Position numbers and translations under genes: made by a program. The notes below the pieces were generated by a model. The model worked only from the letters and a program-made list of their open reading frames with translations. It was not told where the DNA came from and made no database searches. From a virus (lineage: Duplodnaviria > Caudoviricetes): a stretch of DNA of 62,116 nucleotides. The number at the start of each line of letters is the position of its first letter. Position 1 is the first letter of the stretch. Shown here piece by piece: positions 1 to 62,116 of this stretch. The stretch lies in IMG/VR virus record IMGVR_UViG_3300035180_002081, positions 1-62,116 of that record. One strand, written 5' to 3'.

Positions 1-360
1 GGCACGGCGACCGCTGGCGACGCGGGCACGGCGACCGCTGGCTACGCGGGCACGGCGACCGCTGGCTACGCGGGCACGGCGACCGCTGGCGTCAGGGGCA
101 CGGCGACCGCTGGCGACACGGGCACGGCGACCGCTGGCTACGCGGGCACGGCGACCGCTGGCGACACGGGCACGGCGACCGCTGGCGTCAGGGGCACGGC
201 GACCGCTGGCGACACGGGCACGGCGACCGCTGGCGTCAGGGGCACGGCGACCGCTGGCTACGCGGGCACGGCGACCGCTGGCTACGCGGGCACGGCGACC
301 GCTGGCTACGCGGGCACGGCGACCGCTGGCGTCAGGGGCACGGCGACCGCTGGCGAAAAT
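1..360 (+). repeat. 24-nt coding tandem repeat, 15 units (GGCACGGCGACCGCTGGC + 6 variable nt)
   Basis: Units end in DA,YA,YA,VR,DT,YA,DT,VR,DT,VR,YA,YA,YA,VR,EN. Confidence 0.98.
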
Positions 361-528
361 GGCGTGATCTCGATCCTGTGGTGGGACGGCTCGAAGCAGA
401 AGTACCGCAAGGCCATCGCCGTCATCGGCGAGGGCGACGTCAAGGCCAACGTCCGCTACCGCCTCGACGCCGCCGGCAAGTTCGTCATCAACGAGACGCA
501 GCCCGCCACTGCGAAGGCGGCAGCGTAA
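1..528 (+). CDS. C-terminal part of ice-nucleation-protein-like repeat protein (continues from 61534..62116 across the junction)
   Basis: Frame 1 is open from base 1: 15 x GTATAGxx, then GVISILWWDGSKQKYRKAIAVIGEGDVKANVRYRLDAAGKFVINETQPATAKAAA, TAA at 526-528. Not in the ORF track because it has no start codon here. Confidence 0.85.
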   Translation, partial: GTATAGDAGTATAGYAGTATAGYAGTATAGVRGTATAGDTGTATAGYAGTATAGDTGTATAGVRGTATAGDTGTATAGVRGTATAGYAGTATAGYAGTATAGYAGTATAGVRGTATAGENGVISILWWDGSKQKYRKAIAVIGEGDVKANVRYRLDAAGKFVINETQPATAKAAA

Positions 529-1001
529 TGCGCCTCGTCACCAACGACCCCACGCACGGCGAGTTGACCGAGCGGGTCGACACGTTCGCGGCAGCGCTCA
601 AGGCCGGCATCGAGGAGGCCGACGGGTCGACGATCCTGCAGCGCCAGGTCGATGCCGTCGTCGAGGACATCGGCCACGCCATCCGCACCGCGCTCGGCGC
701 CCCGTGCCAGGTCACGCTCGATAGGCACGGCGAACTGCGCGTGCGCTTCGACGCGGCCAACACCGCAGCGATCGCCCAACTCGACACGTCACCGTCGGTG
801 TTCCCCATCGACGTCATCGTCGAGCAGCGCTCGACCCGCTGCACCGACCTCGCCGCGCTCAAGACCGCGATGGTCGCCGCGCTCGGCAACCCCGCCGTCG
901 CCGCGCGCATCCGCAACGCCGCGAAGCGCAACGGCCCCGCGCTCCGCGTCGCGCCGAAGTCCTACACGGGCGTGCTCACCTCGGGAGGCGTGACGGCATG
1001 A
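528..1001 (+). CDS. Hypothetical protein (MRLVTNDPT...)
   Basis: ATG overlaps the upstream TAA (TAATG); stop overlaps the next ATG. Confidence 0.75.
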   Translation: MRLVTNDPTHGELTERVDTFAAALKAGIEEADGSTILQRQVDAVVEDIGHAIRTALGAPCQVTLDRHGELRVRFDAANTAAIAQLDTSPSVFPIDVIVEQRSTRCTDLAALKTAMVAALGNPAVAARIRNAAKRNGPALRVAPKSYTGVLTSGGVTA

Positions 1002-1540
1002 GCGACCTCGAGTTCAAGCCCTTCGCGAAGATCGCGCGCCTGAAGCGCGACGTGGTCGTCACGGAGAAGATCGACGGCACCAACGCGCTCGTGTGCATCG
1101 CGGACGACGGCGAGACGATTCGCTTCGGCTCGCGCACCCGGTGGATCACGCCGGCCGACGACAACGCCGGGTTCGCTCGGTGGGGCGAGGAGCACCGCGC
1201 AGAGCTGCTGCAGCTCGGCCCCGGCTACCACTACGGCGAGTGGTGGGGCCAGGGCATCCAGCGGCGCTACGGCCTGACGGGGAAGCGCTTCTCGCTGTTC
1301 AACACGGGCCGGTGGAGCGGCGATAAGCAGCCCGCGTGCTGCCACGTCGTGCCCATCCTCGGCATCGGGCCGATGAACGAGACCGTCGACGCCGCGCTCG
1401 CGAAGCTCTGCACCGACGGAAGCGTCGCTGCGCCCGGGTTCGCGCGCCCCGAGGGCGTCGTCGTCTACCACATGGCGAGCCACATGCTGTTCAAGGTGCT
1501 GCTCGAGAACGACGGCGTGCCGAAGGGGGTGGCTGCGTGA
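998..1540 (+). CDS. RNA ligase family nucleotidyltransferase (stand-alone adenylation domain)
   Basis: Motif I TEKIDGTNA, FGSRTRW, YGEWWG, FSLFN, PEGVVV, C-terminal FK. Confidence 0.85.
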   Translation: MSDLEFKPFAKIARLKRDVVVTEKIDGTNALVCIADDGETIRFGSRTRWITPADDNAGFARWGEEHRAELLQLGPGYHYGEWWGQGIQRRYGLTGKRFSLFNTGRWSGDKQPACCHVVPILGIGPMNETVDAALAKLCTDGSVAAPGFARPEGVVVYHMASHMLFKVLLENDGVPKGVAA

Positions 1541-2995: not shown

Positions 2996-3541
2996 ATGAA
3001 CCCGCGCGCGCCCTGCCCTCACGGTGGCGGGGCGCGCGCTGCCACTTCGAAAGCGAGTGCCCCCGTGGGACGCCCGACCAAGCTGACGCCCGAGATCCAC
3101 GCTGACATCGTCGAACGCCTCGGCAACGGCGAGTTCCGCGAGCAGGCCGCCGCCGCTGCCGGCATCGACTCGTCCACGTTCCGGCGCTGGATGCTGCGCG
3201 CCGAGGAAGGCGAGGAGCCCTACGCGCAGTTCGCGCACGACGTCGCCGTCGCTGACGCCAAGGCCGAGGGCGCCTCGGTCTCCGTCATCAAGCACGCGCA
3301 GTACGGCGTGGGCGAGGAGCCCGGCGACTGGAAGGCCGCCGCGTGGCTGCTCGAGCACAAGTTCCCGAAGCGATGGGGCCTGCGCCTGAAGGTCGAGGTG
3401 GCCGAGGAGCTGGGCGACTTCCTCGCGAAGCTGGAGAAGAGCATTGACCCCGAGACCTTCGAACGCGTCCTTTGCGCCGCGTCTGACGCTGCTGGCATCG
3501 AAAAGGCTGGCGGAGCTGCGCGCGTCGAGAGCGACGGCTGA
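2996..3541 (+). CDS. terS: Terminase small subunit (HTH)
   Basis: GRPTKLTPE, HTH AAAAAGIDSSTFRRW, WKAAAWLLE; directly upstream of TerL. Confidence 0.8.
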   Translation: MNPRAPCPHGGGARAATSKASAPVGRPTKLTPEIHADIVERLGNGEFREQAAAAAGIDSSTFRRWMLRAEEGEEPYAQFAHDVAVADAKAEGASVSVIKHAQYGVGEEPGDWKAAAWLLEHKFPKRWGLRLKVEVAEELGDFLAKLEKSIDPETFERVLCAASDAAGIEKAGGAARVESDG

Positions 3542-4844
3542 CGACGAGGAGGGGCTGCTCGAGTTCATCCCGCGGGTGACTCCGTGGTTCGAGAGCCCCT
3601 CCCATCTCAAGCCGATCACGGACGTATTCGAGCAGGCGGTCCACACGCCGCAGAACGTCGCGCTCAGCACACCACCGCAGCACGCGAAGACCGAGACGAT
3701 CTCGCACGCGATCGTGCAGCTCATGCGGCGGATGCCGCGCAAGCGTCACGTCTACGTCACCTACGAGGCGAACCGCGCACAGGAGGTCTCTGCCGCCGTT
3801 CAGCGCATTGCGCGCGACGCCGGGTTCGCTGTCGAGGGGACCAAGTCCCGATGGCACACGGACACCGGCGCGGCGCTACTCGCCACCGGCATCGGCGGCC
3901 CTCTCACAGGATACGCGGCCGACGGCTGCATCATCATCGACGACCCGCACAAGAACCGCGCGGAGGCCGAGAGCGCCACGATCCGCGGCTCCGTCGACGA
4001 CTGGTTCAAGAGCACCGCGCTGACGCGCCGGCACCCGTCCAGCTCCGTCGTCGTCGTCCACACGCGCTGGCACGAGGACGACCTGATCGGCCGGCTCGTG
4101 AAGCGCGGATGGCGGTGGATCAACCTCCCCGCCGTCGACGACCAGGGGCGCGCGCTGTGGCCGAAGCACCGCCCTCGCAGCTTCCTCGACGAGCAGCGCG
4201 GCCACCTCGGCGAGTACGAGTGGGCCTCGCTCTACATGGGGCAGCCGCGGCCGCGCGGGGGCGCCGTCTTCGGTGACGTCCACTTCTTCGAGACGCTCCC
4301 CGAGTCGTACCGCGTCGCGATCGGCGTCGACTTCGCCTACACCGCGAAGACCTCGAGCGACTACTCCGTGGCCGTCGTGCTCGCGAAGGGCCGCGAGAAG
4401 GACTCTCCGCTCTACGTGCTCGAGGTGGTGCGCGAGCAGGTCACCGCGCCGGACTTCGCGAAGCGGCTCGTCGAGCTGCGCAAGCGCTACTCGGGCGCGT
4501 CGCTCTACTCGTACATCGGCGGCACCGAGCAGGGCATCATCGACATGCTCGCGCGGCCCCCGCACGGCATCGTCGTCAACGCGTGGAGCGCGGTGGGGCG
4601 CGGCGACAAGTTCGTGCGTGCGCAGCCGACCGCCGCGACGTGGAACCGCGGGAAGATCCTCGTGCGTCAGGGCGCGTCGTGGGCCCCCACGTTCGTCGGC
4701 GAGGTGGCCGCGTTCACCGGCGTCAGCGACGCCTACGACGACGAGGTCGACGCGCTCGTTGCAGCGCACGACGCCCTCTCTACGGGAGTGAAGGTCGGCG
4801 TGCGCACCTCGGGCGACCGAATCGACGTCGCGGCCGGATTCTAG
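3444..4844 (+). CDS. terL: Terminase large subunit (start uncertain, overlaps terS)
   Basis: Walker A-like PPQHAKT, IIDDPHK, TRWHEDDLIGRL, nuclease motifs GVDFA..DYS and DDEVDA. Confidence 0.93.
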   Translation: MTPRPSNASFAPRLTLLASKRLAELRASRATADDEEGLLEFIPRVTPWFESPSHLKPITDVFEQAVHTPQNVALSTPPQHAKTETISHAIVQLMRRMPRKRHVYVTYEANRAQEVSAAVQRIARDAGFAVEGTKSRWHTDTGAALLATGIGGPLTGYAADGCIIIDDPHKNRAEAESATIRGSVDDWFKSTALTRRHPSSSVVVVHTRWHEDDLIGRLVKRGWRWINLPAVDDQGRALWPKHRPRSFLDEQRGHLGEYEWASLYMGQPRPRGGAVFGDVHFFETLPESYRVAIGVDFAYTAKTSSDYSVAVVLAKGREKDSPLYVLEVVREQVTAPDFAKRLVELRKRYSGASLYSYIGGTEQGIIDMLARPPHGIVVNAWSAVGRGDKFVRAQPTAATWNRGKILVRQGASWAPTFVGEVAAFTGVSDAYDDEVDALVAAHDALSTGVKVGVRTSGDRIDVAAGF

Positions 4845-4929: not shown

Positions 4930-6429
4930 ATGGGCATCGTCGACAGGGCGATCGACCGCGCGCGCGGTCTCCTTGGCGAACAGGCCATGGCGCTCGCCAC
5001 GCGTGCGCTCGGTCCCCGCGGTGCTGCCCCCGCCGGTTCAGGCGTCGGCCCCGGCGCGCGTCCTCCCGCGAACATCTGGCGTGAGATCACGTCGCCCTCG
5101 CCGTACGCCGAGAAGCGCCCGTACACGTTCGGGCAGAACCTCACGCCCTCGGCCGTGTCGAGCGCGCTCCGCCTCGCCGAGCTGGGGTACATGCAGCGCC
5201 TGTCCGACCTCGAGTCGGAGCTGCGCGAGAAGCTGCCGCACCTCCAGGCCGTACTCGCAACGCGCGAGCTGGCCATCACCGCGTGCCTCCGTCGCGGCAA
5301 GTGGGCCGTGCTCCCCGCGGACGTGAAGGGCGCCGGCAAGACGCGCAAGGCCGCCGAGGTCGCGGACTACGTCCGTCGCCGCTTCCAGCGCCTTCCTGCC
5401 TTCGCCGACAGCGTCGGGCACCTCATGGGCGGTGTCTACTTCGGGCGCTCCGCCTGCGAGACGCTGTGGGCCCGTGACGCTGAGGGCATCTACCCCGGCC
5501 GGCTCGTCACCGTGCACCCGCGCCGCCTCTCGTACGCGACGAAGCACGACTGGGCGATCCACCTCTACGACGAGACTGGGAACGAGCACGACCCGAGCCT
5601 CGGGACGCTCCCCGGCCTCGATCTACGCAACGACCCACGCTCTCGCGACAAGTTCGTCATCCACGAGCCGAAGACCGTCGGCGCCGAGTACCCGACCCGC
5701 CAGGGCGTGGGCCGCTCGCTCGTGTTCACGGGCTGCTTCCTCCGCTGGACCTACGCGGAGTGGATGCAGTTCGCCGAGCTGTTCGCCCGCCCGTGGCGCA
5801 TCGGCAGCTTCGACAAGGTCATCGACGACGAAGACGACATCGCGACGCTCGAGACCGCGCTGAAACAGCTCGGGTCCGCGACCACCGCGGTGCTACCGAG
5901 CGGTGCGAAGGTCGAGATCCTGTCGCCGAAGGGCGAGCAGAAGACCCACGAGCAGCTGCGCACCGCCTTCAACGCGGAGATCAGCAAGGTCGTCCTCGGG
6001 CAGACCAGCACGACCGAGCTGGGCGACTCCGGCAGCTACGCCGCGACGAAGGTCCACGACACCGTTCGCCAGGACATCCTTACCGCCGACGGCGCCTCGA
6101 TCAGCGAGACCATCACGCGCGACCTCGTCATGCCGATGGTCCGCCGCACGTTCGGCGCGCTCGTCGCTGAGACGATGTGCCCGCGCTTCGAACTGGTCAC
6201 GCAGCCCGAGGAAGACCGCGACGCCGAGTTCACGCGCTTCGAGGGCCTCGCCGGCCTCGGCGTGTCGTTCGACGCGGACGAGGCGCGCGAGCGCTTCACC
6301 ACCCTCTCGAAGCCGGCCGAAGACGCCGTGCTCCTGAAGCCCCCGCCGAAGCCGGCCCCCGCGATGCCGCCGGGCGCACCGAGCGCAGACGCCGCAGCCA
6401 ACGCCGACCAGGCGGACGAGGCCGCATGA
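4930..6429 (+). CDS. Portal protein, Mu gp29/DUF935-like
   Basis: W..FAELFARPWRIG, NAEISKVVLGQT, GSYAATKVHDTVRQD; follows terL. Confidence 0.92.
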   Translation: MGIVDRAIDRARGLLGEQAMALATRALGPRGAAPAGSGVGPGARPPANIWREITSPSPYAEKRPYTFGQNLTPSAVSSALRLAELGYMQRLSDLESELREKLPHLQAVLATRELAITACLRRGKWAVLPADVKGAGKTRKAAEVADYVRRRFQRLPAFADSVGHLMGGVYFGRSACETLWARDAEGIYPGRLVTVHPRRLSYATKHDWAIHLYDETGNEHDPSLGTLPGLDLRNDPRSRDKFVIHEPKTVGAEYPTRQGVGRSLVFTGCFLRWTYAEWMQFAELFARPWRIGSFDKVIDDEDDIATLETALKQLGSATTAVLPSGAKVEILSPKGEQKTHEQLRTAFNAEISKVVLGQTSTTELGDSGSYAATKVHDTVRQDILTADGASISETITRDLVMPMVRRTFGALVAETMCPRFELVTQPEEDRDAEFTRFEGLAGLGVSFDADEARERFTTLSKPAEDAVLLKPPPKPAPAMPPGAPSADAAANADQADEAA

Positions 6430-50516: not shown

Positions 50517-50864
50517 ATGAGCGAAGACCTTTCGGCCGTTGCAGAAGCGTTCGCACGAGTCGTCCGTTCGAGCATGCCGCAGACGCCGGCCTGCTACTCG
50601 TCGAGCGCCCTGCCGCCCGGCTACCGCACCTCCGCCGGCTTCGCCCGCGCGTGCCGGCAGGGGCGCGTTCCCGGCGCCGTGAAGCGCGGGCGCGCCTGGG
50701 TCGTGACCGTCGAGAGCTACCTCCGTCGAGACGCGGTCGAGGTCGTGCCGCGCAAGCGCAGCGCCCGGCCGAGCGCGAAGGCTGAACAGCGCGTGCTCGC
50801 GAACCTCGCCTCCCGCGGACTCACCATCGCCGAACCGGCAGTCGAGCAGGCCAATGCCGCGTAA
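50517..50864 (+). CDS. Putative excisionase/recombination directionality factor
   Basis: CRQGRVPGAVKRGRAWVV winged HTH; overlaps int start. Confidence 0.65.
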   Translation: MSEDLSAVAEAFARVVRSSMPQTPACYSSSALPPGYRTSAGFARACRQGRVPGAVKRGRAWVVTVESYLRRDAVEVVPRKRSARPSAKAEQRVLANLASRGLTIAEPAVEQANAA

Positions 50865-52356
50865 GGCAACTGGCCAGATCGTCGAGCGCGGTGGGAAGCC
50901 CTACGTGCGCGCGACATTCCCTAACAAGCAGCGGCGCCTATTGCCGCTGACGATTGGAGCGAGCGCCGAACAGTTGGCGATGGAAGCGCGCATCCTCGCG
51001 CGTGCCGCGCGTGCCGGTCAGATCAAGCTCGTCGCCGTGCCGGAGCCGGCGCCCGCGTTCGAGACGGTGTCGAAGTGGTGGGCGCGCATGCTCACGATGA
51101 AGGAGGGCAGGGGGCTCAAGACGGTGGGGGACATGCGCGGCCGGTTCAAGAACTGGATCGAGCCTGTCATCGGCAGCCTTCCGATCCACGCCGTCACGGC
51201 GGACGAGCTGCGGCGCGTCGTCACGAAGCTGGACGCCGCGATCGAGGGCGAGAGCATCACGGCCAAGACCGCGTCGAACGTGTGGGGCGAGGTGACCGGC
51301 GCGTTCCGCGAGGCGTGCGCGTCGAAGCATGACGACCTGCGCGTGCGAACCGACAACCCGACGGAGAAGGTGACCGGTCCCGAGGACGGTGCCGAGCGCG
51401 AGGGCCCCGTGCTCTACCCCGACGAGTTCCTGCAGCTCGTCGCGTGCGAGGCGGTGCCGCTCGCCCGACGCCGGTACTACGTCGCCGCCGTCTACGTTGG
51501 GCCGCGGTCGAACGAGATCGCCGCCATCACGGCCGCGTCTCTCGACCTCGCGCACCTGACGCTGACGATCGACAAGCAGCGCGACCGCAAGACGAACGCG
51601 GACCGCGCGACGAAGACGAAGCGCACGCGCACGTTCCCGATTGAGCCTGCGGCCGTGCCGTTCTTCCGGATGCTCGCCGCCGAGCGTCCCGAGGGGCGCC
51701 TCTTCGACATGCCGCCGGACGAGCTGCGCGCGAAGCTCCTGCGCGAAGACCTGCGCACCGCGAAGCTCGAGCGGCCGGCGCTCTACCACGACGACGCGAC
51801 CCGCCACGGCCTGTGGCTCCACGACCTGCGGCACACGTCGCTGGTGTGGATGGCGATGCGCGGCGACGACCACCTACGCATCCAGTTCCGTGGAGGACAT
51901 AGCGACATGACCACGACGCAGCGCTACATCGCGCACGCGCGCAACCTGCCGGGCGGCATCGGAGGGCCCTTTCCGGCCCTTCCTGACACCGTCGAAAAGG
52001 CACCGGAAAAGGCACCGTCAGTGGTCGAGCCGCAGGAAGGCCAGGTCTTTCCTGCGGTGTTGGGTGGCGTCCCCAACGGGATTCGAACCCTTGACTCGGC
52101 TTGCCCCGTCGCCTTTGAGCACGTTTCGCAGCCTGACGCAGATGTTACGGGGGGTCCAGACGGCTCTAAAGGCACCGGAAAAGGCACCGGGAATGTGCCT
52201 ATTCAGCCCCTCCGGCTGACGCCCAGCGCCATCAGGAACGCGCTCGACGCTGGCGCCGTGCTGGAGGCCGTCGACCGAGCCAAGGCTGGTGACGAGCCCG
52301 CTGTGCTCGCCATCCTGACCGACCTCGCGCGCCGACATGTAGGAGGTGCGTCGTGA
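50854..52356 (+). CDS. int: Tyrosine integrase containing attP
   Basis: GPRSNEI (R), TKT (K), HDLRHT (HxxR), GHSD..TTQRY (H,Y). Confidence 0.95.
   Translation: MPRKATGQIVERGGKPYVRATFPNKQRRLLPLTIGASAEQLAMEARILARAARAGQIKLVAVPEPAPAFETVSKWWARMLTMKEGRGLKTVGDMRGRFKNWIEPVIGSLPIHAVTADELRRVVTKLDAAIEGESITAKTASNVWGEVTGAFREACASKHDDLRVRTDNPTEKVTGPEDGAEREGPVLYPDEFLQLVACEAVPLARRRYYVAAVYVGPRSNEIAAITAASLDLAHLTLTIDKQRDRKTNADRATKTKRTRTFPIEPAAVPFFRMLAAERPEGRLFDMPPDELRAKLLREDLRTAKLERPALYHDDATRHGLWLHDLRHTSLVWMAMRGDDHLRIQFRGGHSDMTTTQRYIAHARNLPGGIGGPFPALPDTVEKAPEKAPSVVEPQEGQVFPAVLGGVPNGIRTLDSACPVAFEHVSQPDADVTGGPDGSKGTGKGTGNVPIQPLRLTPSAIRNALDAGAVLEAVDRAKAGDEPAVLAILTDLARRHVGGAS
51995..52190 (+). repeat. Integrase arm-type sites: tandem AAAGGCACCG pairs flanking the core
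   Basis: AAAAGGCACCGGAAAAGGCACCG at 51995-52017 and AAAGGCACCGGAAAAGGCACCGG at 52168-52190. Confidence 0.8.
52065..52090 (-). other. attP: attP core identical to the 3' end of a tRNA-Glu-type gene
   Basis: Minus strand reads GGGTTCGAATCCCGTTGGGGACGCCA (T-arm, acceptor 3' strand, CCA). Confidence 0.85.
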
Positions 52357-52982
52357 CCTGCGCACCGTCACCGGGCGCGCGCCTCCTCGCGCAGACCGTC
52401 GACCCGGACGGCCAGCTCGGCGGTGTCCGTCGTGCGGTCCTCGCCGAGCGGCTCATCCGCATGTCCAACCCGGACGCGAACGGCTGCCGCATCTTCTCCG
52501 GCGCGGGGCGGGGGAGCGGGTACGGCGCGGTCAAGGTCGGCCGGCGAACGATGGACGCGCACCGGGCGGCGTTCCTCGTCTTCGTCGGCCCCATCCCTGA
52601 CGGCGAACTCGTCTGCCATACCTGCGACGTGCGGCGCTGCATCGAGCCCTCGCACCTGTTCCCAGGCACGCACAAGACCAACCACGACGACATGGTGGCG
52701 AAGGGCCGGCGCGTTCCCGGCGAGGCTATCTCGCGCCGCTGCATCGAGCGCGGGACGCGGCCGCCGGTGGTGCAGAAGCTGACCAACGAGCAGGTCGCGG
52801 AGGTCCGCGCCTCGGTCGCGCGCGGCGAGTCTCGCAAGGCCGTCGCTGAACGGTTCGGCGTCTGCGTATCGACCGTGACGAAGATCGCGAACGGGAAACA
52901 CCGGCCACCCGTCGACCACGCTGCGCTCGACGCAACCGCCGAACTGCACGCTGCCGACGCGCTCGGCAAGGGGGACGCGTGA
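52353..52982 (+). CDS. HNH endonuclease with C-terminal HTH
   Basis: AHRAAF...GPIPDG.LVCHTCDVRRCIEPSHL..GT...N..D. Confidence 0.92.
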   Translation: MTCAPSPGARLLAQTVDPDGQLGGVRRAVLAERLIRMSNPDANGCRIFSGAGRGSGYGAVKVGRRTMDAHRAAFLVFVGPIPDGELVCHTCDVRRCIEPSHLFPGTHKTNHDDMVAKGRRVPGEAISRRCIERGTRPPVVQKLTNEQVAEVRASVARGESRKAVAERFGVCVSTVTKIANGKHRPPVDHAALDATAELHAADALGKGDA

Positions 52983-54917: not shown

Positions 54918-56021
54918 ATGTCGTGGGCTCGCTTCGACGACGACGTGCTCGACCACCCGAAGCTGCTGATGGTCTCCGACCTCGCGGCGCATCTGTGGTT
55001 CAAAGCGATCGTCTGGTCGCGCAAGCAGAAGACCAACGGCGTCGTGCCGCGCCACGTCATCGCGACGCTCTTGCGCGTCAAGAAGACGGACGCGCTCGCG
55101 AAGGAACTCGTCGACGCGATCCCGCCAGGCAAGTCGGCTGGCCTGTTCGAGTCGATCGACGGCGGGTGGAAGATCCACGACTTCGATCATTTCGGGCCCC
55201 CGCAGCGCGAGGAACTCTCGGAAACGCGCGCCGAAGCAGGGCGCCGAGGGGCGGCGAAGCGATGGCAAACCGATGGCAAACCGGATGGCAAACGCGAGGA
55301 CGGAGATGGCAAGTTGCCATCCGCTTGCCATGCGGTGCCGATGGCAAACGATAGCTCACGTGCGGGCGCGCCTGCGCACCCGCTCCCGGGCGCACCTGCG
55401 TTCCCGTCCCGTCCCGTCCCGTCCCGTCCCGTGCTTGCTGACGCAAGCACGCAGGCTGCGGGCGAGCCGGCGAATGAGCATGGCCCTCGACCGTCGTTCG
55501 GGAAGGCCCCGCACGGCGGCAAGACCCTCGCCGAGAAGCAGCGCGACGTCGACGAGTGCGCTAGCTACCTGGCCTCGCGGATGGCGACGCTCGGCGTGCA
55601 GGACGAGCGCGACCTGCGCGGGTGGCTGACCGAGACGCTGCCCGAGTTCCCGATCCCTGCCGACACGCCGGTGCTCCCGCTCCTGCGGCTCGCCTTCGCC
55701 GCCGTGCGCGACTCCGCCGCGGCGACGCCGGGTATGCGCGCCGAATCGAAGCTCGCCCGGCTCCGAGCGCAGGTCGGGCTCAAGGCGGCCGACGACAAGG
55801 CCGACGGGTGGAGCTTCGCGCGGTCCGACGGGCAGGCAGGGAAGCTCGCCCCGAAGGCGCTCGAGCGAGGCGGCGTGGGCCCCGGCAGCGGCCTCGACAC
55901 GGCATCCGCGGTCGCCGACATGCAAGTGCTTGAGCGCGACCAGGAGCATGAGCGCGCGAAGCGGCGAGGCGGCGAAGCGAGCGCGACCCAGTTGTTCAGC
56001 GGCGTTCGGGGTGCAGCATGA
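54918..56021 (+). CDS. Replication initiator protein
   Basis: W.RFDD...DHPK, TNGVVP, GW.IHDF, RAEAGRRGA..RW; internal iterons; upstream of dnaB. Confidence 0.85.
   Translation: MSWARFDDDVLDHPKLLMVSDLAAHLWFKAIVWSRKQKTNGVVPRHVIATLLRVKKTDALAKELVDAIPPGKSAGLFESIDGGWKIHDFDHFGPPQREELSETRAEAGRRGAAKRWQTDGKPDGKREDGDGKLPSACHAVPMANDSSRAGAPAHPLPGAPAFPSRPVPSRPVLADASTQAAGEPANEHGPRPSFGKAPHGGKTLAEKQRDVDECASYLASRMATLGVQDERDLRGWLTETLPEFPIPADTPVLPLLRLAFAAVRDSAAATPGMRAESKLARLRAQVGLKAADDKADGWSFARSDGQAGKLAPKALERGGVGPGSGLDTASAVADMQVLERDQEHERAKRRGGEASATQLFSGVRGAA
55260..55350 (+). repeat. Replication origin iterons (GATGGCAA direct and TTGCCAT inverted copies)
   Basis: GATGGCAA at about 55261, 55272, 55284, 55305, 55340; TTGCCAT at 55314 and 55325. 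Confidence 0.75.
55403..55432 (+). repeat. (CCCGT)6 microsatellite in initiator gene
   Basis: Six perfect pentamers encoding PSRPVPSRPV. Confidence 0.9.
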
Positions 56022-57466
56022 CCACCCAGCGCAAGCCTTGGCGCCCGGCGGTCGAGGTAGTCGACCTCGGAGGCCGCGTCCCGCCCCACAACGACGCTGT
56101 GGAGGCCGCCGTGCTCGCGCACGTGCTCGCGCACGGGGGGACCGCCCTCGACGAGCTGGCGGACCTACTGGGCGTTCAGCACTGGTACGCCGACGGAAAC
56201 CGGCGCGTGTACGCCGCTGCGGTGGAGCTGCACCGCGAGGGGCGCGCCGTCGACCTGCAGACCGTGGCCGAGAGGCTCCGGGCGCGCGACGAGATCCAAG
56301 CGATCGGCGGCGTGTCCTTCCTCGCGACGCTGATCGACTCGACGCCCGCCGTCGCGAACCTTCGCGCCCACGCCGAGATCGTCGTCGACCTCGCGACCAA
56401 GCGCCGCGCGATCGATACGTGCCAGCTCGCGGCCGCCGAGGGCTTCGGCGACACCGGCCCCACCCTCGCGTGGCTCGATGGGGTCGAGCAGAAGATCCAC
56501 GACCTCGCGCCCGCACGGCAGACGCGGGGCGTCGTCGATGCGTACGACCTGATGAGCGACTTCGTTCGGCGGATGGGGGACCCGACGCCGCCAGGCATCT
56601 CCACGGGGCTCGTCGACGTCGACCGCCAGCTCGGTGGGGGGATGCGAGACGGCGAGCTGATCATCGTGGCCGCGCGCCCCGGCATGGGCAAGACGGCGTT
56701 CGTCACCGGGCTGCTGATGTCCGTCGCCAGCGCAGGCCCGCTCTACGACGGGGCGGACATGGTCCGGCCGAACCTCGGCGCGATGCTGTTCTCGCTCGAG
56801 ATGCCGGCTCAGCAGATGGGCGATCGAATCGCCTGCAGTGACGCGCGGGTGTCACTGTCCGCGCTTCGGTCGAAGTCGCTCACCCCGAACGCGGCGGACT
56901 CGCTCACTGAATCGGCCAGCAAACTCTCGCAGTTGCCGCTGTGGGTCGACGACACCCCTGCCATCACGATGATGGAGCTTCGCGCGAAGGCGCGTCGGAA
57001 GCAGCGCGAGTTCGACAAGGCCGGCCAGAAGCTCGCGCTCGTGATCGTCGACTACCTGCAGCTCATGAAGGGCAGCGGCGAGGACAATCGAGAGCAGGAA
57101 ATCAGCAGCATCTCGCGCGGCCTGAAGCAGATGGCGAAAGAGCTGAAGCTGCCCGTCGTCGCACTCTCGCAGCTGAACCGAGCCGTCGAGACGCGCAGCA
57201 CGAAGGACAAGCGCCCGCAGCTGTCGGACCTGCGCGAGTCGGGCGCCATCGAGCAAGACGCCGACGTGATCCTCTTCGTCTACCGGCCCGAATACTACAT
57301 CTCCGACAAAACTTCGGCCGACGCGCACAAACTCGCCGGGTACGCGGAAATCATCTTCGCGAAGCAGCGGAATGGGCCGACTGGACGAGTCCCCGTGACG
57401 TTCGTCGAGAGCTGCGCTCGGTTCGAGAACCGTAGTCGCGACTCGTACAGCGACAGCGACGAGTGA
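56018..57466 (+). CDS. dnaB: Replicative DNA helicase
   Basis: ARPGMGKT, FSLEM, VDYLQLM, LSQLNR, DLRESGAIEQDAD, KQRNGPTG. Confidence 0.98.
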   Translation: MTTQRKPWRPAVEVVDLGGRVPPHNDAVEAAVLAHVLAHGGTALDELADLLGVQHWYADGNRRVYAAAVELHREGRAVDLQTVAERLRARDEIQAIGGVSFLATLIDSTPAVANLRAHAEIVVDLATKRRAIDTCQLAAAEGFGDTGPTLAWLDGVEQKIHDLAPARQTRGVVDAYDLMSDFVRRMGDPTPPGISTGLVDVDRQLGGGMRDGELIIVAARPGMGKTAFVTGLLMSVASAGPLYDGADMVRPNLGAMLFSLEMPAQQMGDRIACSDARVSLSALRSKSLTPNAADSLTESASKLSQLPLWVDDTPAITMMELRAKARRKQREFDKAGQKLALVIVDYLQLMKGSGEDNREQEISSISRGLKQMAKELKLPVVALSQLNRAVETRSTKDKRPQLSDLRESGAIEQDADVILFVYRPEYYISDKTSADAHKLAGYAEIIFAKQRNGPTGRVPVTFVESCARFENRSRDSYSDSDE

Positions 57467-57531: not shown

Positions 57532-57987
57532 ATGGCCCCGCCGTGTGTGCGATTCACCGTCAGCGGATTGCGCTTGGTCTCCGAGGCCAACGCGCACGAG
57601 CACCATTGGTACCGGAAGCGGCGCGCTGAGCTGCAGCACGCCAAGACGGCGCCCGAGATGCGCGCTGCGCTCGCGAAGGAACGCGCACGCCTCGCCGTCG
57701 AAACGAACGACCGCCTGCCGAACAACGTCGGGGCGTGGCTCTCGGGCGCGCTGCTCGTCACGATCACACGCATCGCGCCGAGCCGAATCCGGGACAGCGA
57801 CAACTTGACCGGCTGCGCGAAGCACGTTCGCGACTGCATCGCCAAGGTGCTCGGCGTCGACGACTCGACGGACCGAATCGTCTGGCGCGTCGAGCAGCGG
57901 CGCGGAGGAGTCCGGGAGTACGGAGTGGAGGTCACGATCTCGACGCGCGAGATGTGCCCGCACTGCGGCGGCGTCATGGCCGCTTGA
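57532..57987 (+). CDS. RusA-like Holliday junction resolvase
   Basis: SEAN, ITR......DSDNL....KHVRD.IA..LGVDD. Confidence 0.8.
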   Translation: MAPPCVRFTVSGLRLVSEANAHEHHWYRKRRAELQHAKTAPEMRAALAKERARLAVETNDRLPNNVGAWLSGALLVTITRIAPSRIRDSDNLTGCAKHVRDCIAKVLGVDDSTDRIVWRVEQRRGGVREYGVEVTISTREMCPHCGGVMAA

Positions 57988-59921: not shown

Positions 59922-60334
59922 CCACCAAGGCCCGGCCCGCACGCGATCGGAAGCCGCCTCGCATGTCGCGGCACCTGACGCTGCGCGAGGTCGCGGACAT
60001 GCTCGGCATGAAGGGGCCGACCGCCCCACGGCGCATCCGCGAGCAGCTCCTCCGGCTCGAGGAGCGCACCGGCAAGCGGTTCCTCGTCCGCATGGGCTCC
60101 GACGGGACGGGCACCCGCTACATGGTCACGCTCGCGACGCTTCGCGAGCACCACCCCGACTTCTTCTACCGGCGCGACGAGGCGGCCGAGACCCTGCGGA
60201 CCTACGTCGAGGGCATCGAGGAGCGCTTCGAAGACCTCGCCGATCGCATCGAGGTGCTCGCGAAGGAAGTCGCGAACCGCCTGCAGAACATCGGCGAGCG
60301 GGTCCAGGTGCTCGAGGGGAAGCGGGCCGCGTGA
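59918..60334 (+). CDS. HTH DNA-binding protein with coiled coil
   Basis: LTLREVADMLGM; C-terminal heptads. Confidence 0.7.
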   Translation: MTTKARPARDRKPPRMSRHLTLREVADMLGMKGPTAPRRIREQLLRLEERTGKRFLVRMGSDGTGTRYMVTLATLREHHPDFFYRRDEAAETLRTYVEGIEERFEDLADRIEVLAKEVANRLQNIGERVQVLEGKRAA

Positions 60335-60386
60335 CCAGTGCCGCCGAGTGACGGCAAGCGCCCGCCTGCGGGCTTCGAGTGAGTAC

Positions 60387-61059
60387 GGCGCGTGGATGGG
60401 CATGCCCACCGCGACGCCATCCGCCCCACGCGAGGACGCTCGCGACCACGGGGCAACACGCCACCAACCTGCGCGGCCCTGGGCAGCGGGAAGGGTGGCA
60501 GACGCGCGCCGACGTGCCGGTTCGACCGGAGTTACGGCCGCGTCACCTCTTCCGCGCAGGGAAGCCCGCTACTCCGCGAAACCGGGCTTCTTCAACGACC
60601 CAGCTAGGCGCCTGCGCGTTCGGCATCCATCGCAGCAGCCGACGTTCGCGTCGGTCGGGTAGTCGCCGCCCCGAACACGGGGTCGAGGTCGAGCGGAGTC
60701 GCCGCCGGGGTTACAGCCGGAATCGCCCGCTGACGCGACAATGCTGCCACCTGCGGACCCGCCACGTGTGGGCACCGTTACGGCCACGCCGCTGCACGCG
60801 CTGAGCAACAAGTATCAGCCGTCGACGTGAGCCAGCCACCCCCAAGCACGCCGGCAACGGAGGGGGCAGCGGGAAGCTGAATGTGCCAGGCGCCAGACCC
60901 GCACAGGGCGAGGCGCCGCCTAGCGGTGAGATGGCTCCGGCGAGCCTGTCGGAGTCATGATCCGACGCGGGTGGTTCGACTCCACCCACCGCTACCGAGT
61001 CCCCCCGTGCCGAGCCATGCGAATGGCCACCCAAAGCCGGCAGGGCGACGGGGAGACTC
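60387..61059 (+). ncRNA. Putative large structured non-coding RNA region
   Basis: No credible ORF; consecutive nested stems such as CCTGCGCGG/CCGCGCAGG (60468-60560) and GAAGCCCG/CGGGCTTC (60561-60590). Confidence 0.55.
60922..60996 (+). tRNA. Atypical tRNA with CAT anticodon (Met/Ile2-like)
   Basis: AGCGGTG/CACCGCT acceptor, GGCTC-CGGC-GAGCC D-arm, GTCGGA-GTCATGA-TCCGAC anticodon arm, GGTGG-TTCGACT-CCACC T-arm, 3' ACC(G). Confidence 0.7.
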
Positions 61060-61118
61060 GCTGTTGTCGTCGACTCGTTTCGCGCGCTGACGTGCGCGCG
61101 CGCGGAGAAGGATCTGGA

Positions 61119-61409
61119 ATGCCGAGCGAACAGAAGCCGTCGATCGGGCGCGTCGTGCACTACGTCATCGCGCTCGACCACGTGGGGGAGCCCGTCGTTC
61201 AGCCTGCGATGATCGTCCGGTGCTGGCCCGAGTCGGTGAACATGCAGGTGCTGCTCGACGGCGGGAACGTGAACCGATCTCGGTTCGCCGCGCCCTCGCC
61301 GTTCGCGCCGACGGATGCCGAGTGCGCCGCTGGCATGGCGTGGCGGACCTCGGTGCACCACTCCGACGCGCAGGATCCCGGCACGTGGCACTGGCCGCCG
61401 AGGGTGTGA
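61119..61409 (+). CDS. Conserved small phage protein (KPSIGRVVHY...TWHWPPRV)
   Basis: Recognisable phage motif set; AAGGA RBS. Confidence 0.8.
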   Translation: MPSEQKPSIGRVVHYVIALDHVGEPVVQPAMIVRCWPESVNMQVLLDGGNVNRSRFAAPSPFAPTDAECAAGMAWRTSVHHSDAQDPGTWHWPPRV

Positions 61410-61428
61410 CCACGCTCGACTGCCACTC

Positions 61429-61536
61429 TTCGGAATCGCCCTGAGCTGCTTGCTGGTTTCGCGCGGCGCATGCGAAACGCGGAGTGCGTCGGAGCCGTCG
61501 ACTCGACACGAGCCCGCGCAGGAGCGATTCCGAATG
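61429..61536 (+). promoter_or_regulatory. Structured 5' leader sequestering the RBS of the INP-like gene
   Basis: TTCGGAATCGC-CCTG pairs with CAGG-A-GCGATTCCGAA, covering AGGAG and the A of ATG. Confidence 0.65.
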
Positions 61537-62116
61537 GCCAAGTCCAAGCCTGCTCGCAAGTCCGTGGCGAAGAAGAAGCCCGCGCCCAAGTTCACCGCCG
61601 CCGCGCCGGTCTCGGCCACCTCGGCGAAGCCTGCGACCGTCCTCGTACTGCGCACGTGCATGGCCGACATGGGCGGCACCCACTCGAGCGCGCGGCGCTT
61701 CATCTGGCCCGCCAGCGGCCCCGTGGCGGCGCCCGATTGGGACCCGTCGCCCGTGTGCGGCCACGGCCTGCACGGCCTGCTGTGGGGCGCCGGTGACGCC
61801 GGGATGCTCCGCTGGCAGGCCGACTCGAAGTGGCTCGTGGTCGAGGTGGTGGCGAGCGACGTCGTCTCGCTCGACGACGGCGCCAAGGTGAAGTTCCCGC
61901 GCGGCGTCGTCGTGTTCTGCGGCGACCAGAAGGCCGCGAGCGACTACATCGCCGAGCACGCGCCGAAGGGAACGATCGTGCACGGCGCGACGGCGACCGC
62001 TGGCTACGCGGGCACGGCGACCGCTGGCTACGCGGGCACGGCGACCGCTGGCGACACGGGCACGGCGACCGCTGGCTACGCGGGCACGGCGACCGCTGGC
62101 TACGCGGGCACGGCGA
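61534..62116 (+). CDS. N-terminal part of ice-nucleation-protein-like repeat protein (continues at 1..528)
   Basis: LVLRTC, FIWPASG, GLHGLLWGAG, WLVVEV, KVKFPRG, then TATAGYAG repeats to the window end. Confidence 0.85.
   Translation, partial: MAKSKPARKSVAKKKPAPKFTAAAPVSATSAKPATVLVLRTCMADMGGTHSSARRFIWPASGPVAAPDWDPSPVCGHGLHGLLWGAGDAGMLRWQADSKWLVVEVVASDVVSLDDGAKVKFPRGVVVFCGDQKAASDYIAEHAPKGTIVHGATATAGYAGTATAGYAGTATAGDTGTATAGYAGTATAGYAGTA
61987..62116 (+). repeat. 24-nt coding tandem repeat, 5 units plus a partial (same family as 1..360)
   Basis: YA,YA,DT,YA,YA; last 10 nt equal the first 10 nt of the window. Confidence 0.97.

What the first reader, a model, noticed from the sequence alone, without database searches (positions are those of the whole stretch)
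61534..62116. Phage-encoded protein with ice-nucleation-protein architecture, split across the window ends
Seen: an ORF missed by the ORF track starts at ATG 61534, runs off the end in GTATAGxx repeats, and resumes at 1..528. From recalled knowledge of Pseudomonas InaZ: the N-domain has LVLRTC, IWPASG, GLxGLLWGAG, WxVxEV and VKFPR, all present here in order. The InaZ core is AGYGSTxT octapeptides (here AGYAGTAT), and its C-cap is roughly LWDGKRYR..A..GE.GV.A...Y (here WWDGSKQKYRKAIAVIGEGDVKANVRY). Inference: a beta-solenoid with TxT water-ordering ladders on both faces. With at least about 20 octamers it is much shorter than potent INPs, so it could be an ice-binding/antifreeze protein, a weak nucleator, or an ancestral form with another role. 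It heads the operon leading to the terminase. Relatives may exist in other phages, so novelty needs checking.
Basis: partly seen in the sequence, partly recalled or inferred. Interest (0 to 1): 0.85.

Follow-up and report, generated by a model that had tools for sequence, protein, structure and literature searches.

The report
Phage-borne miniature ice-nucleation-protein homologue
A temperate phage carries a short relative of bacterial ice nucleation proteins, one of a very large and unnamed phage family from which the bacterial ice nucleators may have arisen.

Summary
ATG 61534 opens a frame that runs off the window in 24-bp repeats, and a repeat-plus-tail frame ends at 528. The window is a whole viral contig that broke inside its own repeat. 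A plain join is out of frame; the exact 10-nt terminal overlap restores it.

All three modules are homologous to a true ice nucleation protein (INP) fetched with a pattern built from the window's own motifs:
- N-domain: BLASTP 2e-27, 46% identity; hhalign 99.8%.
- Octapeptide repeats: 45-48% identity.
- C-cap: hhalign 98.7%.

AlphaFold2 gives a confident strand-every-8-residues repeat fold plus cap (pLDDT 95). Its nearest solved folds are beta-rolls and solenoids, some of them antifreeze proteins.

The protein belongs to a large family of phages and prophages in many phyla (phrog_18079, DUF7666 N-domain; 2029 representative clusters). Sources name it hypothetical, and none of my eight literature searches linked it to INPs.

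Family genes usually lie among replication and recombination genes, not virion genes. The N-domain fold resembles T4 rIIB and, weakly, ADP-ribosyltransferases. I read the protein as an intracellular accessory protein. Ice binding in vitro is plausible but probably not the selected role. Function is inferred, not shown.

The parts
61410..61533 (+). Intergenic spacer upstream of the gene, after the 150-aa ORF 60957..61409 (phrog_2293, unknown function).
   Evidence: No sigma-70-like promoter or terminator was found in 60300-62116.
61534..61632 (+). Start codon and Lys/Ala/Pro-rich leader, residues 1-33. It holds no hydrophobic signal or transmembrane segment.
   Evidence: There are 9 K/R in the first 34 residues and the maximum Kyte-Doolittle 19-residue mean is 1.09. 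pLDDT is 71-80 with no secondary structure.
61633..61983 (+). N-domain, residues 34-150. It is DUF7666-type and homologous to the INP N-terminal domain. It has seven strands and one helix and abuts the repeats without a long linker.
   Evidence: - BLASTP to INP: E 2e-27, 46% identity. hhalign 99.8%.
- Pfam DUF7666: 20.7 bits, below the cut-off of 27.
- AF2 pLDDT is mostly 90-98, with strands 35-42, 62-65, 79-83, 99-106, 111-113, 118-121 and 123-130, and helix 132-142.
- Atlas TM 0.85 and 0.84 to clusters in which 98-100% of members carry PF00818.
61984..62116 (+). First five octapeptide repeats (TATAGYAG, TATAGYAG, TATAGDTG, TATAGYAG, TATAGYAG). The contig ends inside the array.
   Evidence: (24-bp unit, 5.3 copies, 96% matches). 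Strands 153-156, 161-164, 169-172, 177-180 and 185-188.
1..354 (+). Continuation of the array: 15 octapeptides GTATAG + DA/YA/VR/DT/EN. The first 10 nt are identical to the last 10 nt of the window.
   Evidence: 14.8 copies, 92% matches; overlap of 10 nt exact, in frame. AF2 gives 4-residue strands every 8 residues with pLDDT 97-99.
355..492 (+). C-terminal cap (ENGVISILWWDG...YRLDAAGKFVI), homologous to the 41-residue INP cap.
   Evidence: - BLASTP to the INP cap: E 2e-6. Profile hhalign 98.7%, E 1.6e-16.
- Y in NVRY is the one invariant column of 44 caps.
- Cap strands 122-129, 134-141, 153-155 and 161-163.
493..528 (+). Short disordered tail and stop codon TAA 526-528. The stop overlaps the ATG (528-530) of the next ORF, 528..1001.
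   Evidence: pLDDT is below 50 for residues 169-175 of P0002.

Best explanation
The two window ends are the two halves of one phage gene. The assembler cut it inside its own 24-bp tandem repeat.

**What it encodes.** A protein of at least about 366 residues with four parts:
- a Lys-rich disordered leader;
- a roughly 115-residue alpha/beta N-domain (DUF7666-type);
- at least 20 octapeptides GTATAGxx, which fold as a thin two-sheet beta-solenoid of at least about 10 coils with Thr-x-Thr rows on both sheets;
- a roughly 45-residue C-terminal cap.

N-domain, repeats and cap are each homologous to the corresponding modules of bacterial ice nucleation proteins (shown).

**Family.** The protein is one member of a very large, unnamed phage and prophage family (phrog_18079) spread over many bacterial phyla (shown). 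The gammaproteobacterial INPs look like an expanded offshoot of this family (inferred). In them a linker has been inserted, the repeat has differentiated into a 16-mer, and several residues invariant in the phage N-domain have been lost.

**How it most likely works (inferred, about 0.3).**
- It is made inside the infected or lysogenic cell from the replication/accessory gene block, and is not part of the virion.
- The N-domain, which shares its fold with T4 rIIB and weakly with ADP-ribosyltransferases, is the working or docking end, towards the membrane or a nucleotide-type ligand or host target.
- The capped solenoid is a rigid rod whose length changes quickly by repeat slippage.
- A host-takeover or counter-defence role is my best guess.
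- Ice binding is a likely in-vitro property of the TxT sheets, but not what selection acts on.
For: **One gene**
- Both halves hit one PHROG profile in order: N part at profile positions 9-178 (E 4.5e-37), C part at 140-249 of 251 (E 4.6e-45).
- 67 complete relatives with octapeptide repeats show N-domain, 2.1-35 units (median 10.9) and cap in a single ORF.
- The 10-nt exact end overlap joins the pieces in frame.
- 39 of 122 relatives' ORFs also run off their contig inside the repeat.

**Homology to INP**
-.
- The INP N-domain hits all 122 family N-domains at 42.7-96.7 bits.
- 3 of 42 family C-parts hit Pfam Ice_nucleation at E<=0.01. One of them (L073) scores 29.9 bits, above the cut-off of 27.

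**Fold**
- pLDDT 95.1 and pTM 0.88 for the C part; pLDDT 90.9 for the N part.

**Family size and range**
- 2029 representative clusters at E<=1e-3, 1447 at <=1e-10.
- 216 confirmed stretches in IMG/VR.
- 40 loci in genomes of a dozen or so phyla.

**Intracellular accessory role**
- No signal peptide or transmembrane segment.
- No conserved neighbour: the top cluster occurs in 10 of 119 loci. The recurring neighbours are Sak4, exonucleases, methyltransferase, helicase, RecT and integrase.
- In the window the gene follows DnaB and RusA and precedes RNA ligase and terminase.
- Rare N-terminal fusions to Macro and DUF7831 domains.

**N-domain fold relatives**
- 11 of 50 BFVD rows carry rIIB-type names (E 1.9e-4 to 5e-2, rmsd about 3-4 A over about 105-115 columns). 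The Atlas gives the rIIB domain TM 0.62.
- About 30 of 50 VIA rows are ADP-ribosyltransferase-fold chains covering model residues 34-133.

**Direction of descent**
- The INP has lost F56, D68, C75, G76, H80 and K118, which are invariant or nearly so in 78 family members.
Against: **The join is not read directly**
- No read or contig spans the array. The Logan contigs of three runs shatter into 39-118-nt pieces in the repeat, so the join and the repeat number rest on relatives.
- IMG/VR classes the record as linear, and CheckV puts it at 80% complete.

**Weak points in the homology and fold evidence**
- Pfam Ice_nucleation does not hit the window's own repeats at E<=1.
- DUF7666 is below its cut-off on the window's N-domain (20.7 against 27) and does not hit the INP at E<=0.01.
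- Foldseek against the PDB found nothing at E<=1e-3. A profile search of PDB sequences found nothing at E<=10.
- The canonical catalytic Glu of that fold is not among the invariant columns.

**Descent and function**
- The tree does not place the INP with support, so the direction of descent is an argument from breadth and residue loss, not a rooted result.
- No expression or functional data exist. The counter-defence idea rests on position, fusions and fold resemblance only.

**Search misses**
- Word-indexed searches with N-domains failed to list INPs, which I cannot explain.
- The family was not found in 50,697 isolated-phage records by tblastn.
Confidence: 0.8

Rival explanations
1. The protein is a working ice-active protein that the phage carries for that purpose. 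It would be an antifreeze or ice-binding protein, or a weak nucleator made of TxT-laddered sheets, that helps host or virion survive or exploit freezing.
For: - It is a true homologue of INPs in all modules.
- Every octapeptide has a T-A-T strand.
- One family member passes Pfam's Ice_nucleation cut-off.
- Phages are already reported to carry ice-binding-like genes of another family, PF11999 (PMC11515562, passages read).
Against: - The family is spread over genomes of many phyla, including gut-unrelated, soil, sediment and mat MAGs. There is no sign of restriction to cold habitats.
- About 10 coils is far below the 50-100 coils of potent INPs (PMC12978214 and PMC10727499, passages read).
- There is no signal peptide. 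The genes lie in replication and recombination blocks.
- Repeat flavours without TxT (GHASATG, SSxAASSG, APAATTG) occur in the same family.
- Other phage proteins join the same N-domain fold to pentapeptide or YdcK-type solenoids that have no ice motif.
Confidence: 0.12
2. It is a virion or surface structure: a fibre, spike, decoration or adhesin built from a beta-roll. The N-domain would be the attachment piece.
For: - In the window the gene lies about 3 kb upstream of the terminase genes.
Against: - Those matches have rmsd 6.5-11 A and are generic beta-roll hits.
- Recurring neighbours are recombination and replication genes, not tail or head genes.
- In the window an RNA ligase and other ORFs separate it from TerS. 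The structural block starts only after the portal gene.
- One copy lies on a plasmid between a recombination-type gene and a primase-type gene, as read from the ORF translations.
Confidence: 0.08
3. The two ends are not one gene. The record would be a truly linear genome or a fragment, and the window would hold a 3'-truncated gene at one end and an unrelated 5'-truncated repeat gene at the other.
For: - IMG/VR classes the ends as linear, and CheckV estimates 80% completeness.
- Plain concatenation is out of frame.
- No contig of three runs bridges the array.
Against: - The same 24-bp unit lies on the same strand at both ends, with a 10-nt exact overlap that is in frame.
- The N half lacks a cap and the C half lacks an N-domain, while 67 complete relatives have both in one ORF.
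- One PHROG profile is covered in order by the two halves.
- 39 of 122 relatives are cut in the same way.
- Gene order runs smoothly from the replication module across the join into the packaging module.
Confidence: 0.04
4. The likeness to INPs is convergence or low-complexity noise, not common descent.
For: - Gly/Thr/Ala octapeptides are low-complexity, and repeat-to-repeat E-values are inflated.
- Pfam Ice_nucleation does not hit the window's repeats.
Against: The two non-repetitive modules match independently and in the same order:
- N-domain: 46% identity, E 2e-27, hhalign 99.8%.
- Cap: hhalign 98.7%. The equivalents of the three PbINP cap residues whose mutation abolishes activity (F1204, D1208, Y1230; PMC10727499 passages) are kept as I, D and Y.
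Confidence: 0.01

Closest known systems
Bacterial ice nucleation proteins (InaZ and PbINP type; Pfam PF00818 repeat)
   Same: - Same order of three homologous modules.
- The N-terminal domain of about 105 residues is 46% identical.
- The tandem repeat has an 8-residue sub-period and an A-G-Y-x-G/S-T-x-T skeleton.
- The C-terminal cap has the W-D-G...R-Y-R...G-E-x-G-[VI]...Y pattern.
- Predicted beta-solenoid.
   Different: - At least about 10 coils here, against 50-100 in INPs.
- No linker of about 50 residues or more: the repeats start about 10 residues after the N-domain helix.
- The repeat is a uniform octapeptide with TAT in every unit. INPs have a 16-mer that alternates a TxT half with an SxLT half.
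- No Pfam PF00818 hit.
- The phage family keeps C75, H80, D68, K118 and F56, which the INP lacks.
- It is encoded by a phage, not by a gammaproteobacterial chromosome.
phrog_18079 / DUF7666-octapeptide proteins of phages and prophages (function unknown)
   Same: This is the family it belongs to. It covers the full PHROG profile, is 47-82% identical in the N-domain to relatives, and has the same cap.
   Different: - Nothing essential differs.
- The window's copy has the YA/DT/VR flavour of the variable dipeptide, a Lys-rich leader, and more repeats than the family median (at least 20 against 10.9).
- Its N-domain scores below Pfam's DUF7666 cut-off.
T4-type rIIB proteins (Pfam PF26926)
   Same: Predicted fold of the N-domain. 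Foldseek against BFVD gives E 1.9e-4 to 5e-2 and rmsd about 2.7-4 A over about 100-117 columns for 11 rows with rIIB-type names. The Atlas gives TM 0.62. Both are early or accessory phage proteins.
   Different: - No sequence-level match.
- rIIB has no octapeptide solenoid or INP cap.
- This is fold resemblance between predicted models only. It shows no shared function.
Beta-solenoid ice-binding proteins (Lolium perenne IBP 3ult, Marinomonas MpAFP 3p4g, Rhagium AFP 6xnr)
   Different: There is no homology of termini. The rmsd is 4-6.6 A, which is a generic beta-roll likeness. The coil lengths differ.
ADP-ribosyltransferase fold (PARP catalytic domains, Tpt1/KptA, Arr, TreTu, DarT, ParT)
   Same: About 30 of the 50 best VIA-align rows for the N-domain are such chains, all aligned to model residues 34-133. 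One relative carries a Macro domain.
   Different: - No sequence match to any PDB chain.
- No invariant acidic residue at the expected place.
- This is a lead, not a membership.

Membership tests
Bacterial ice nucleation proteins (InaZ family) | Folded N-terminal domain of about 100 residues, of the INP type | tested here: met
   BLASTP 97.1 bits, E 2e-27, 46% identity over 107 residues against P0169. hhalign 99.8%. Atlas TM 0.85 and 0.84 to PF00818-bearing clusters.
Bacterial ice nucleation proteins (InaZ family) | Flexible linker of about 50 residues or more between the N-domain and the repeats | tested here: not met
   The first repeat strand (153-156) follows helix 132-142 by about 10 residues. 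In P0169 about 70 Pro/Thr/Ala-rich residues intervene.
Bacterial ice nucleation proteins (InaZ family) | Central 16-residue repeats that match Pfam PF00818 (a TxT half and an SxLT half) | tested here: not met
   No PF00818 hit at E<=1 on either half, nor in the six-frame search of the record. The unit is a uniform octapeptide. BLASTP still aligns the repeats at 45-48% identity. A relative, L073, does pass (29.9 against 27 bits).
Bacterial ice nucleation proteins (InaZ family) | 50-100 coils (protein of about 1000 residues or more) | tested here: not met
   At least 20 octapeptides, or about 10 coils, are assembled. The array is cut by the contig ends, so the number is a floor. Complete relatives have 2.1-35 units.
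Bacterial ice nucleation proteins (InaZ family) | Arg-rich coils before the cap | tested here: inconclusive
   Four of the 20 units carry VR, and three of these lie in the second half. There is no distinct block like that of P0169.
Bacterial ice nucleation proteins (InaZ family) | Conserved C-terminal cap of about 41 residues | tested here: met
   Cap-only BLASTP E 2e-6. Profile hhalign 98.7%, E 1.6e-16. The equivalents of PbINP F1204, D1208 and Y1230 are I, D and Y.
Bacterial ice nucleation proteins (InaZ family) | Ice nucleation activity and outer-membrane location | not testable with these tools
   This needs expression, droplet-freezing assays and cell fractionation.
phrog_18079 | Match to the family profile over its length | tested here: met
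   N half E 4.5e-37 (profile positions 9-178). C half E 4.6e-45 (140-249 of 251).
Pfam DUF7666 (PF24703) | Score at or above the curated cut-off of 27 bits | tested here: not met
   The window scores 20.7 bits, E 6e-4. Relatives pass (L010 at 33.4 bits, P0012 at 32.2). The Atlas places the window's N-domain among DUF7666 clusters (score 0.91, TM 0.90). It is therefore a divergent member by homology, below the model's own line.
ADP-ribosyltransferase fold superfamily | Significant structural match and the H-Y-E or R-S-E type active-site residues | tested here: inconclusive
   [not shown]
T4 rIIB (PF26926) | Sequence match to the family model | tested here: not met
   It is not among the Pfam hits at E<=1. 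Only predicted-fold likeness was found.

The most novel reading that the evidence does not exclude
Bacterial, and through them fungal, ice nucleation proteins descend from a phage accessory protein. A short N-domain-solenoid-cap protein, common in temperate phages of many phyla, would have been captured by a gammaproteobacterium. It then gained a linker, expanded its octapeptides into 50-100 differentiated 16-residue coils, and lost the N-domain's conserved site.

The N-domain would be the same module as in T4 rIIB. INP membrane anchoring and the membrane-linked anti-exclusion role of rII would then share an origin, and the phage proteins would act at the cell membrane against abortive-infection systems.
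Probability: 0.3. Interest if true: 0.85.

Novelty: new variant of a known kind. Interest (0 to 1): 0.75.

Why it matters
**Known range of INPs.** In the passages I read, INPs are treated as a family of Pantoea, Pseudomonas and Xanthomonas plus one transfer to Mortierellaceae fungi (PMC12978214; 'phage' and 'virus' occur 0 times in that text). They are described by AlphaFold models.

**What changes if this holds.**
- The family of INP-type N-domains widens by orders of magnitude: 2029 representative clusters, across many phyla, mostly on phages.
- It offers a concrete origin for INPs.
- It provides natural, small (about 190-450 residue) homologues without a signal peptide or membrane segment. 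They carry the same cap and repeat skeleton and should be far easier to crystallise than a 120-kDa INP.
- It ties the enigmatic INP N-domain to a phage domain family with conserved Cys, His, Asp and Lys residues, and to rIIB by predicted fold.

**Annotation.** These genes break short-read assemblies: 39 of 122 relatives are cut, and so is the window. Gene callers therefore miss or truncate them systematically.

Tried and rejected
**Isolated phages and plasmids**
- tblastn of the N half against 50,697 isolated-phage records found no match. The same search against 72,556 plasmids found no match.
- Megablast of 20 kb of the window against phages found no match.

**Solved structures by sequence**
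- phmmer of P0001 against PDB sequences gave only chance-level rows, E at least 0.13.
- A profile of A1 against PDB sequences gave 0 hits at E<=10.

**Routes to an INP that failed**
- NCBIfam: 0 families.
- The search for homologous proteins, 'longer' mode: P0001 gave 22 family members and no INP. P0012 region 130-250 gave 56 candidates, none at E<=10. I cannot explain why INPs were not listed.
- PF00818 in 401 genomes of the class of G001: 0 matches. The 14 control genomes were also silent.
- What worked was a degenerate pattern built from the window's own WPASG...GLLWGAG motifs.

**Synteny**
- The downstream ORF 528-998 has no relatives in viral contigs. I therefore found no syntenic relative with the gene intact.

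**Reads**
- Three runs hold the N part. They are kept as contigs, and these break into 39-118-nt pieces in the array. No joint and no bridging record was found, so the junction and copy number remain unresolved.

**Structure searches**
- Foldseek against the PDB found nothing at E<=1e-3 for either model.
- Complex prediction with two copies of the C part gave 'no answer' (score 0.01).

**Phylogeny**
- The tree of 123 N-domains gave no supported placement of the INP. I left out two near-identical INP rows, L125 and L126.

**Other checks**
- Pfam on the 121-residue N-extension of L054/P0005: 0 families at E<=10. BLASTP of it against P0012 found nothing.
- Pfam DUF4774, Prion_octapep, UspA1_rep and Gp5_trimer_C hits on the repeats are low-complexity matches. 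I disregard them.
- Cluster look-ups gave only 'hypothetical protein' or no name.
- Supplements of the papers were not seen. Tables of INP orthologues there might list short homologues.
Full report
**1. What is in the sequence**

The window is a whole IMG/VR virus record of 62,116 bases with about 70% G+C. It is classed as 'linear', and CheckV puts it at 80% complete.
- ATG 61534 opens a frame that is still open at the last base: 194 codons, stored as P0001.
- Frame 1 is open from base 1 and stops at TAA 526-528: 175 codons, stored as P0002.
- GC3 in these frames is 0.95 for the non-repeat N part and 0.91 for the tail.
- Tandem Repeats Finder reports one 24-bp unit at both ends, on the same strand: 61990-62116 (5.3 copies, 96% matches) and 1-356 (14.8 copies, 92%). 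In protein these are 5 + 15 octapeptides GTATAG followed by YA, DT, DA, VR or EN.

Plain concatenation of the ends is out of frame. The last 10 nt equal the first 10 nt, and joining through that overlap is in frame. Overlaps of 34, 58 or 82 nt, with one mismatch each, are also in frame. The contig therefore most likely broke inside the array, and 20 units is a floor.

**2. One gene or two**

I could not read across the array. Three public runs hold the N part, but they are kept as contigs that fall into pieces of 39-118 nt in the repeat. No joint or bridging record was found. The downstream ORF has no relatives in viral contigs, so I have no syntenic relative with the gene intact.

The case for one gene rests on relatives:
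- A single PHROG profile (phrog_18079, 251 positions) is covered in order. The N half matches positions 9-178 (E 4.5e-37) and the C half 140-249 (E 4.6e-45).
- Proteins of 341-533 residues from public data show N-domain, octapeptides and tail in one chain.
- A complete plasmid of Singulisphaera carries a 277-residue copy.
- In 120 fetched loci I found 122 ORFs with the N-domain, in 119 of the loci.
- Among those with octapeptide repeats, 67 are complete, with 2.1-35 units (median 10.9) followed by the same tail.
- 39 of the 122 ORFs run off their contig inside the repeat, as the window does.
- The closest relative (82% identity, a deltaproteobacterial MAG, with the same upstream gene) is cut in the same place.

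**3. Is it related to ice nucleation proteins**

Three routes failed:
- Word-indexed protein searches listed none.
- Pfam's INP repeat was silent in the 14 control genomes.
- It was also silent in 401 sampled genomes of one class.

A degenerate DNA pattern built from two motifs of the window's own protein (WPASG, 18 codons, GLLWGAG) found four metagenome loci. Three encode InaZ-type proteins and one a phage-family member. L127 holds a complete one, P0169 (1342 aa). Pfam Ice_nucleation scores it at 1257 bits in 54 stretches.

Against this INP:

| Module | Test | Result |
|---|---|---|
| N-domain | BLASTP | 97.1 bits, E 2e-27, 46% identity over 107 residues |
| N-domain | hhalign, profile of 11 family N-domains | 99.8%, E 2.9e-29 |
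| Repeats | BLASTP | 45-48% identity over 114-122 residues, E about 1e-16 (inflated by low complexity) |
| Tail, repeats removed | BLASTP | 26.2 bits, E 2e-6 |
| Tail | hhalign, profile of 44 family tails | 98.7%, E 1.6e-16 |

Three PbINP cap residues abolish activity when mutated together: F1204, D1208 and Y1230 (PMC10727499, passages read). They correspond to F, D and Y in P0169, and to I, D and Y in the window. That Y is the only invariant column of the 44 tails.

The INP N-domain hits all 122 family N-domains (42.7-96.7 bits, median 74.9). Of 42 family C-parts, 3 hit Pfam Ice_nucleation at E<=0.01. One viral copy with a GSTLTGG flavour (L073) passes the curated cut-off, at 29.9 against 27 bits.

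The homology is therefore real and modular. Defining features of the INP family proper are nevertheless not met: there is no long linker, no PF00818 match in the window's own repeats, and about 10 coils rather than 50-100.

**4. Structure**

*C half.* AlphaFold2 on the C half with 42 aligned relatives gives pLDDT 95.1 and pTM 0.88.
- Four-residue strands fall on the TATA of every octapeptide.
- A tail of four strands follows: 122-129, 134-141, 153-155 and 161-163.

*N half.* With 78 relatives, the N half gives pLDDT 90.9.
- The leader is unstructured.
- The domain has seven strands and one helix (residues 35-142).
- The solenoid strands start at residue 153, so the N-domain sits directly on the rod.

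I had no coordinates. 'Two octapeptides per coil, Thr outward on both sheets, Ala inward' is inferred from the sequence and from published INP models.

*Comparison with solved structures.*
- Foldseek against the PDB found nothing at E<=1e-3 for either model.
- VIA-align places the C half among beta-rolls and solenoids:

**5. The N-domain**

*Pfam and the Atlas.*
- Pfam DUF7666 scores the window at 20.7 bits, below its cut-off of 27.
- It passes on relatives but does not hit the INP at E<=0.01. Pfam's DUF7666 model thus does not capture the link between it and the INP N-domain.
- The Atlas matches the window's N-domain to DUF7666 clusters (TM 0.90).
- It also matches two clusters in which 98-100% of members carry PF00818 (TM 0.85 and 0.84).
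- At TM about 0.6 it matches phage proteins that join this fold to pentapeptide or YdcK-type solenoids, and a T4 rIIB domain.

*BFVD.* After a DUF7666 fragment (E 2e-18), 11 of the 50 rows carry rIIB-type names. Their E-values run from 1.9e-4 to 5e-2, with rmsd about 2.7-4 A over about 100-117 columns.

*Solved chains.*
- About 30 of the 50 rows are ADP-ribosyltransferase-fold domains, going by their titles and my knowledge of these proteins.
- These include 14 PARP-type catalytic domains, three Tpt1, Arr, TreTu, TreX, DarT1, ParT, and the diphtheria, pertussis, CARDS and Scabin toxins.
- All align to model residues 34-133.
- I keep this as a lead.

*Fusions and conserved residues.*
- One relative carries a Macro domain in front of the N-domain and another a DUF7831 domain.
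- In 78 family members F56, C75, G76, G78, L79, G81, G85, K118 and K120 are invariant.
- R40, W58, P59, D68, W69 and H80 are nearly so.
- The INP keeps the core but has L, Y, H, E, V and M at F56, D68, C75, G76, H80 and K118.

**6. Family, range and context**

*Size and range.*
- The N-domain profile finds 2029 representative clusters (50% identity) at E<=1e-3, 1447 at <=1e-10 and 293 at <=1e-30.
- IMG/VR yields 216 confirmed stretches, of which 79 loci were kept.
- One genome per species yields 40 loci. By record title they come from:
  - Planctomycetota, Chloroflexota and Acidobacteriota;
  - Bacteroidota, Verrucomicrobiota and Actinomycetota;
  - Gemmatimonadota, Armatimonadota and Pseudomonadota;
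  - Saccharibacteria and others.
- None of 50,697 isolated-phage records matched.

*Context in relatives.*
- No neighbour is conserved: the commonest cluster occurs in 10 of 119 loci.
- The recurring ones are Sak4-like and RecT-like annealing proteins, exonucleases, a methyltransferase, a helicase and integrases.

*Context in the window.* The order is:
- integrase (50854-52356), HNH (52353-52982), DnaB (56018-57466) and RusA (57532-57987);
- small ORFs, then this gene, then an unknown ORF that overlaps its stop;
- RNA ligase (998-1540), TerS (2996-3541), TerL (3444-4844) and a Mu-type portal (4930-6429).

The protein has no signal peptide or membrane segment. This points to an accessory protein made in the cell, not a virion part.

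**7. Reading**

*Shown:*
- one gene, by relatives;
- modular homology to INPs;
- a confident repeat-plus-cap fold;
- a very large phage-borne family;
- a place among replication and accessory genes.

*Inferred:*
- INPs are an expanded offshoot. The grounds are breadth of the phage family against a few gammaproteobacterial genera, loss of conserved N-domain residues in the INP, and a bridging STLTGG flavour.
- The tree gives the INP a long end branch (0.71 against a median of 0.26) and no supported position, so the direction is not proven.

*Guessed (about 0.3):* the N-domain docks to the membrane or to a nucleotide-type ligand or target, the solenoid is a length-variable rod, and the role lies in host takeover or counter-defence.

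Ice binding by the TxT sheets is plausible in vitro. A selected ice function fits poorly with three things:
- the family's breadth;
- the members with other repeat flavours and 9-residue periods;
- the same N-domain fold on solenoids without ice motifs.

**8. Novelty**

Eight full-text searches found no paper that links phage proteins, DUF7666 or rIIB to INPs.
- 'DUF7666' occurs in 0 papers of the library.
- A 2026 paper on fungal INPs lists orthologues only in Pantoea, Pseudomonas, Xanthomonas and Mortierellaceae. It contains 'phage' 0 times (PMC12978214, passages read).
- Phage 'ice-binding-like' genes in print belong to another family, PF11999 (PMC11515562, passages read).
- The library lacks most subscription journals, and I could not see supplements.

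I file this as a new variant of a known kind.

Noticed in passing
L008, L019, L023, L024, L028, L031, L033, L037, L038, L041, L086, L098, L114, L116, L118, L119, L122, L123 (coordinates): A sub-group of the family has 9-residue repeats (GHASATGxx, SSxAASSGx, APAATTGxx, AHSSTTGxx). These often follow an extra helical-looking stretch after the N-domain, and they end in the same cap. My 8-period counter scored them as 'no repeat'.
   Followed up: partly
L091:4953-5513 and L091:5575-6978; L069:589-1488 and L069:4923-5894; L051:4941-5711 and L051:9778-10320; L059 and L069 lie on one 110-kb contig, L095 and L097 on one 163-kb contig: Some viral contigs carry two or more family genes. In L091 they lie side by side with different repeat flavours (STLTGG with 3 units next to GTATAG with 35 units).
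   Followed up: no
window 998-1540 (+): A 180-residue RNA ligase (phrog_548 E 7e-26; Pfam RNA_ligase E 1.9e-13) lies two genes downstream, just before the packaging genes.
   Followed up: partly
window 528-1001 (+): A 157-residue ORF whose ATG overlaps the stop of the INP-like gene (TAATG). It has no PHROG or Pfam family and no relatives in IMG/VR by the pattern scan.
   Followed up: partly
L045:5644-6894: In one family member the GTSTSG repeats change in mid-array to a run of GAPPPPATG-like units and back. This looks like the same DNA repeat read in another frame, from either a frameshift or an assembly error inside the array.
   Followed up: no
L054:4196-4558 (= P0005 residues 1-121); P0003 residues 45-157; P0012 residues 19-123: Rare N-terminal additions sit in front of the N-domain. 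They are a Macro domain (E 1.5e-42), DUF7831 (E 7.3e-26) and a 121-residue domain with no Pfam family.
   Followed up: partly
window 61843-61883 and 62007-62088: In all three public runs the summed contig depth jumps from about 5 to 55-98 over the VKFPR-coding stretch and the repeats. Many related genes from other organisms in those samples probably share these words. This is not a copy number.
   Followed up: no
L013, L027, L034: Three genome loci have runs of N (read as X) inside or next to the repeat array, so those copies could not be scored.
   Followed up: no
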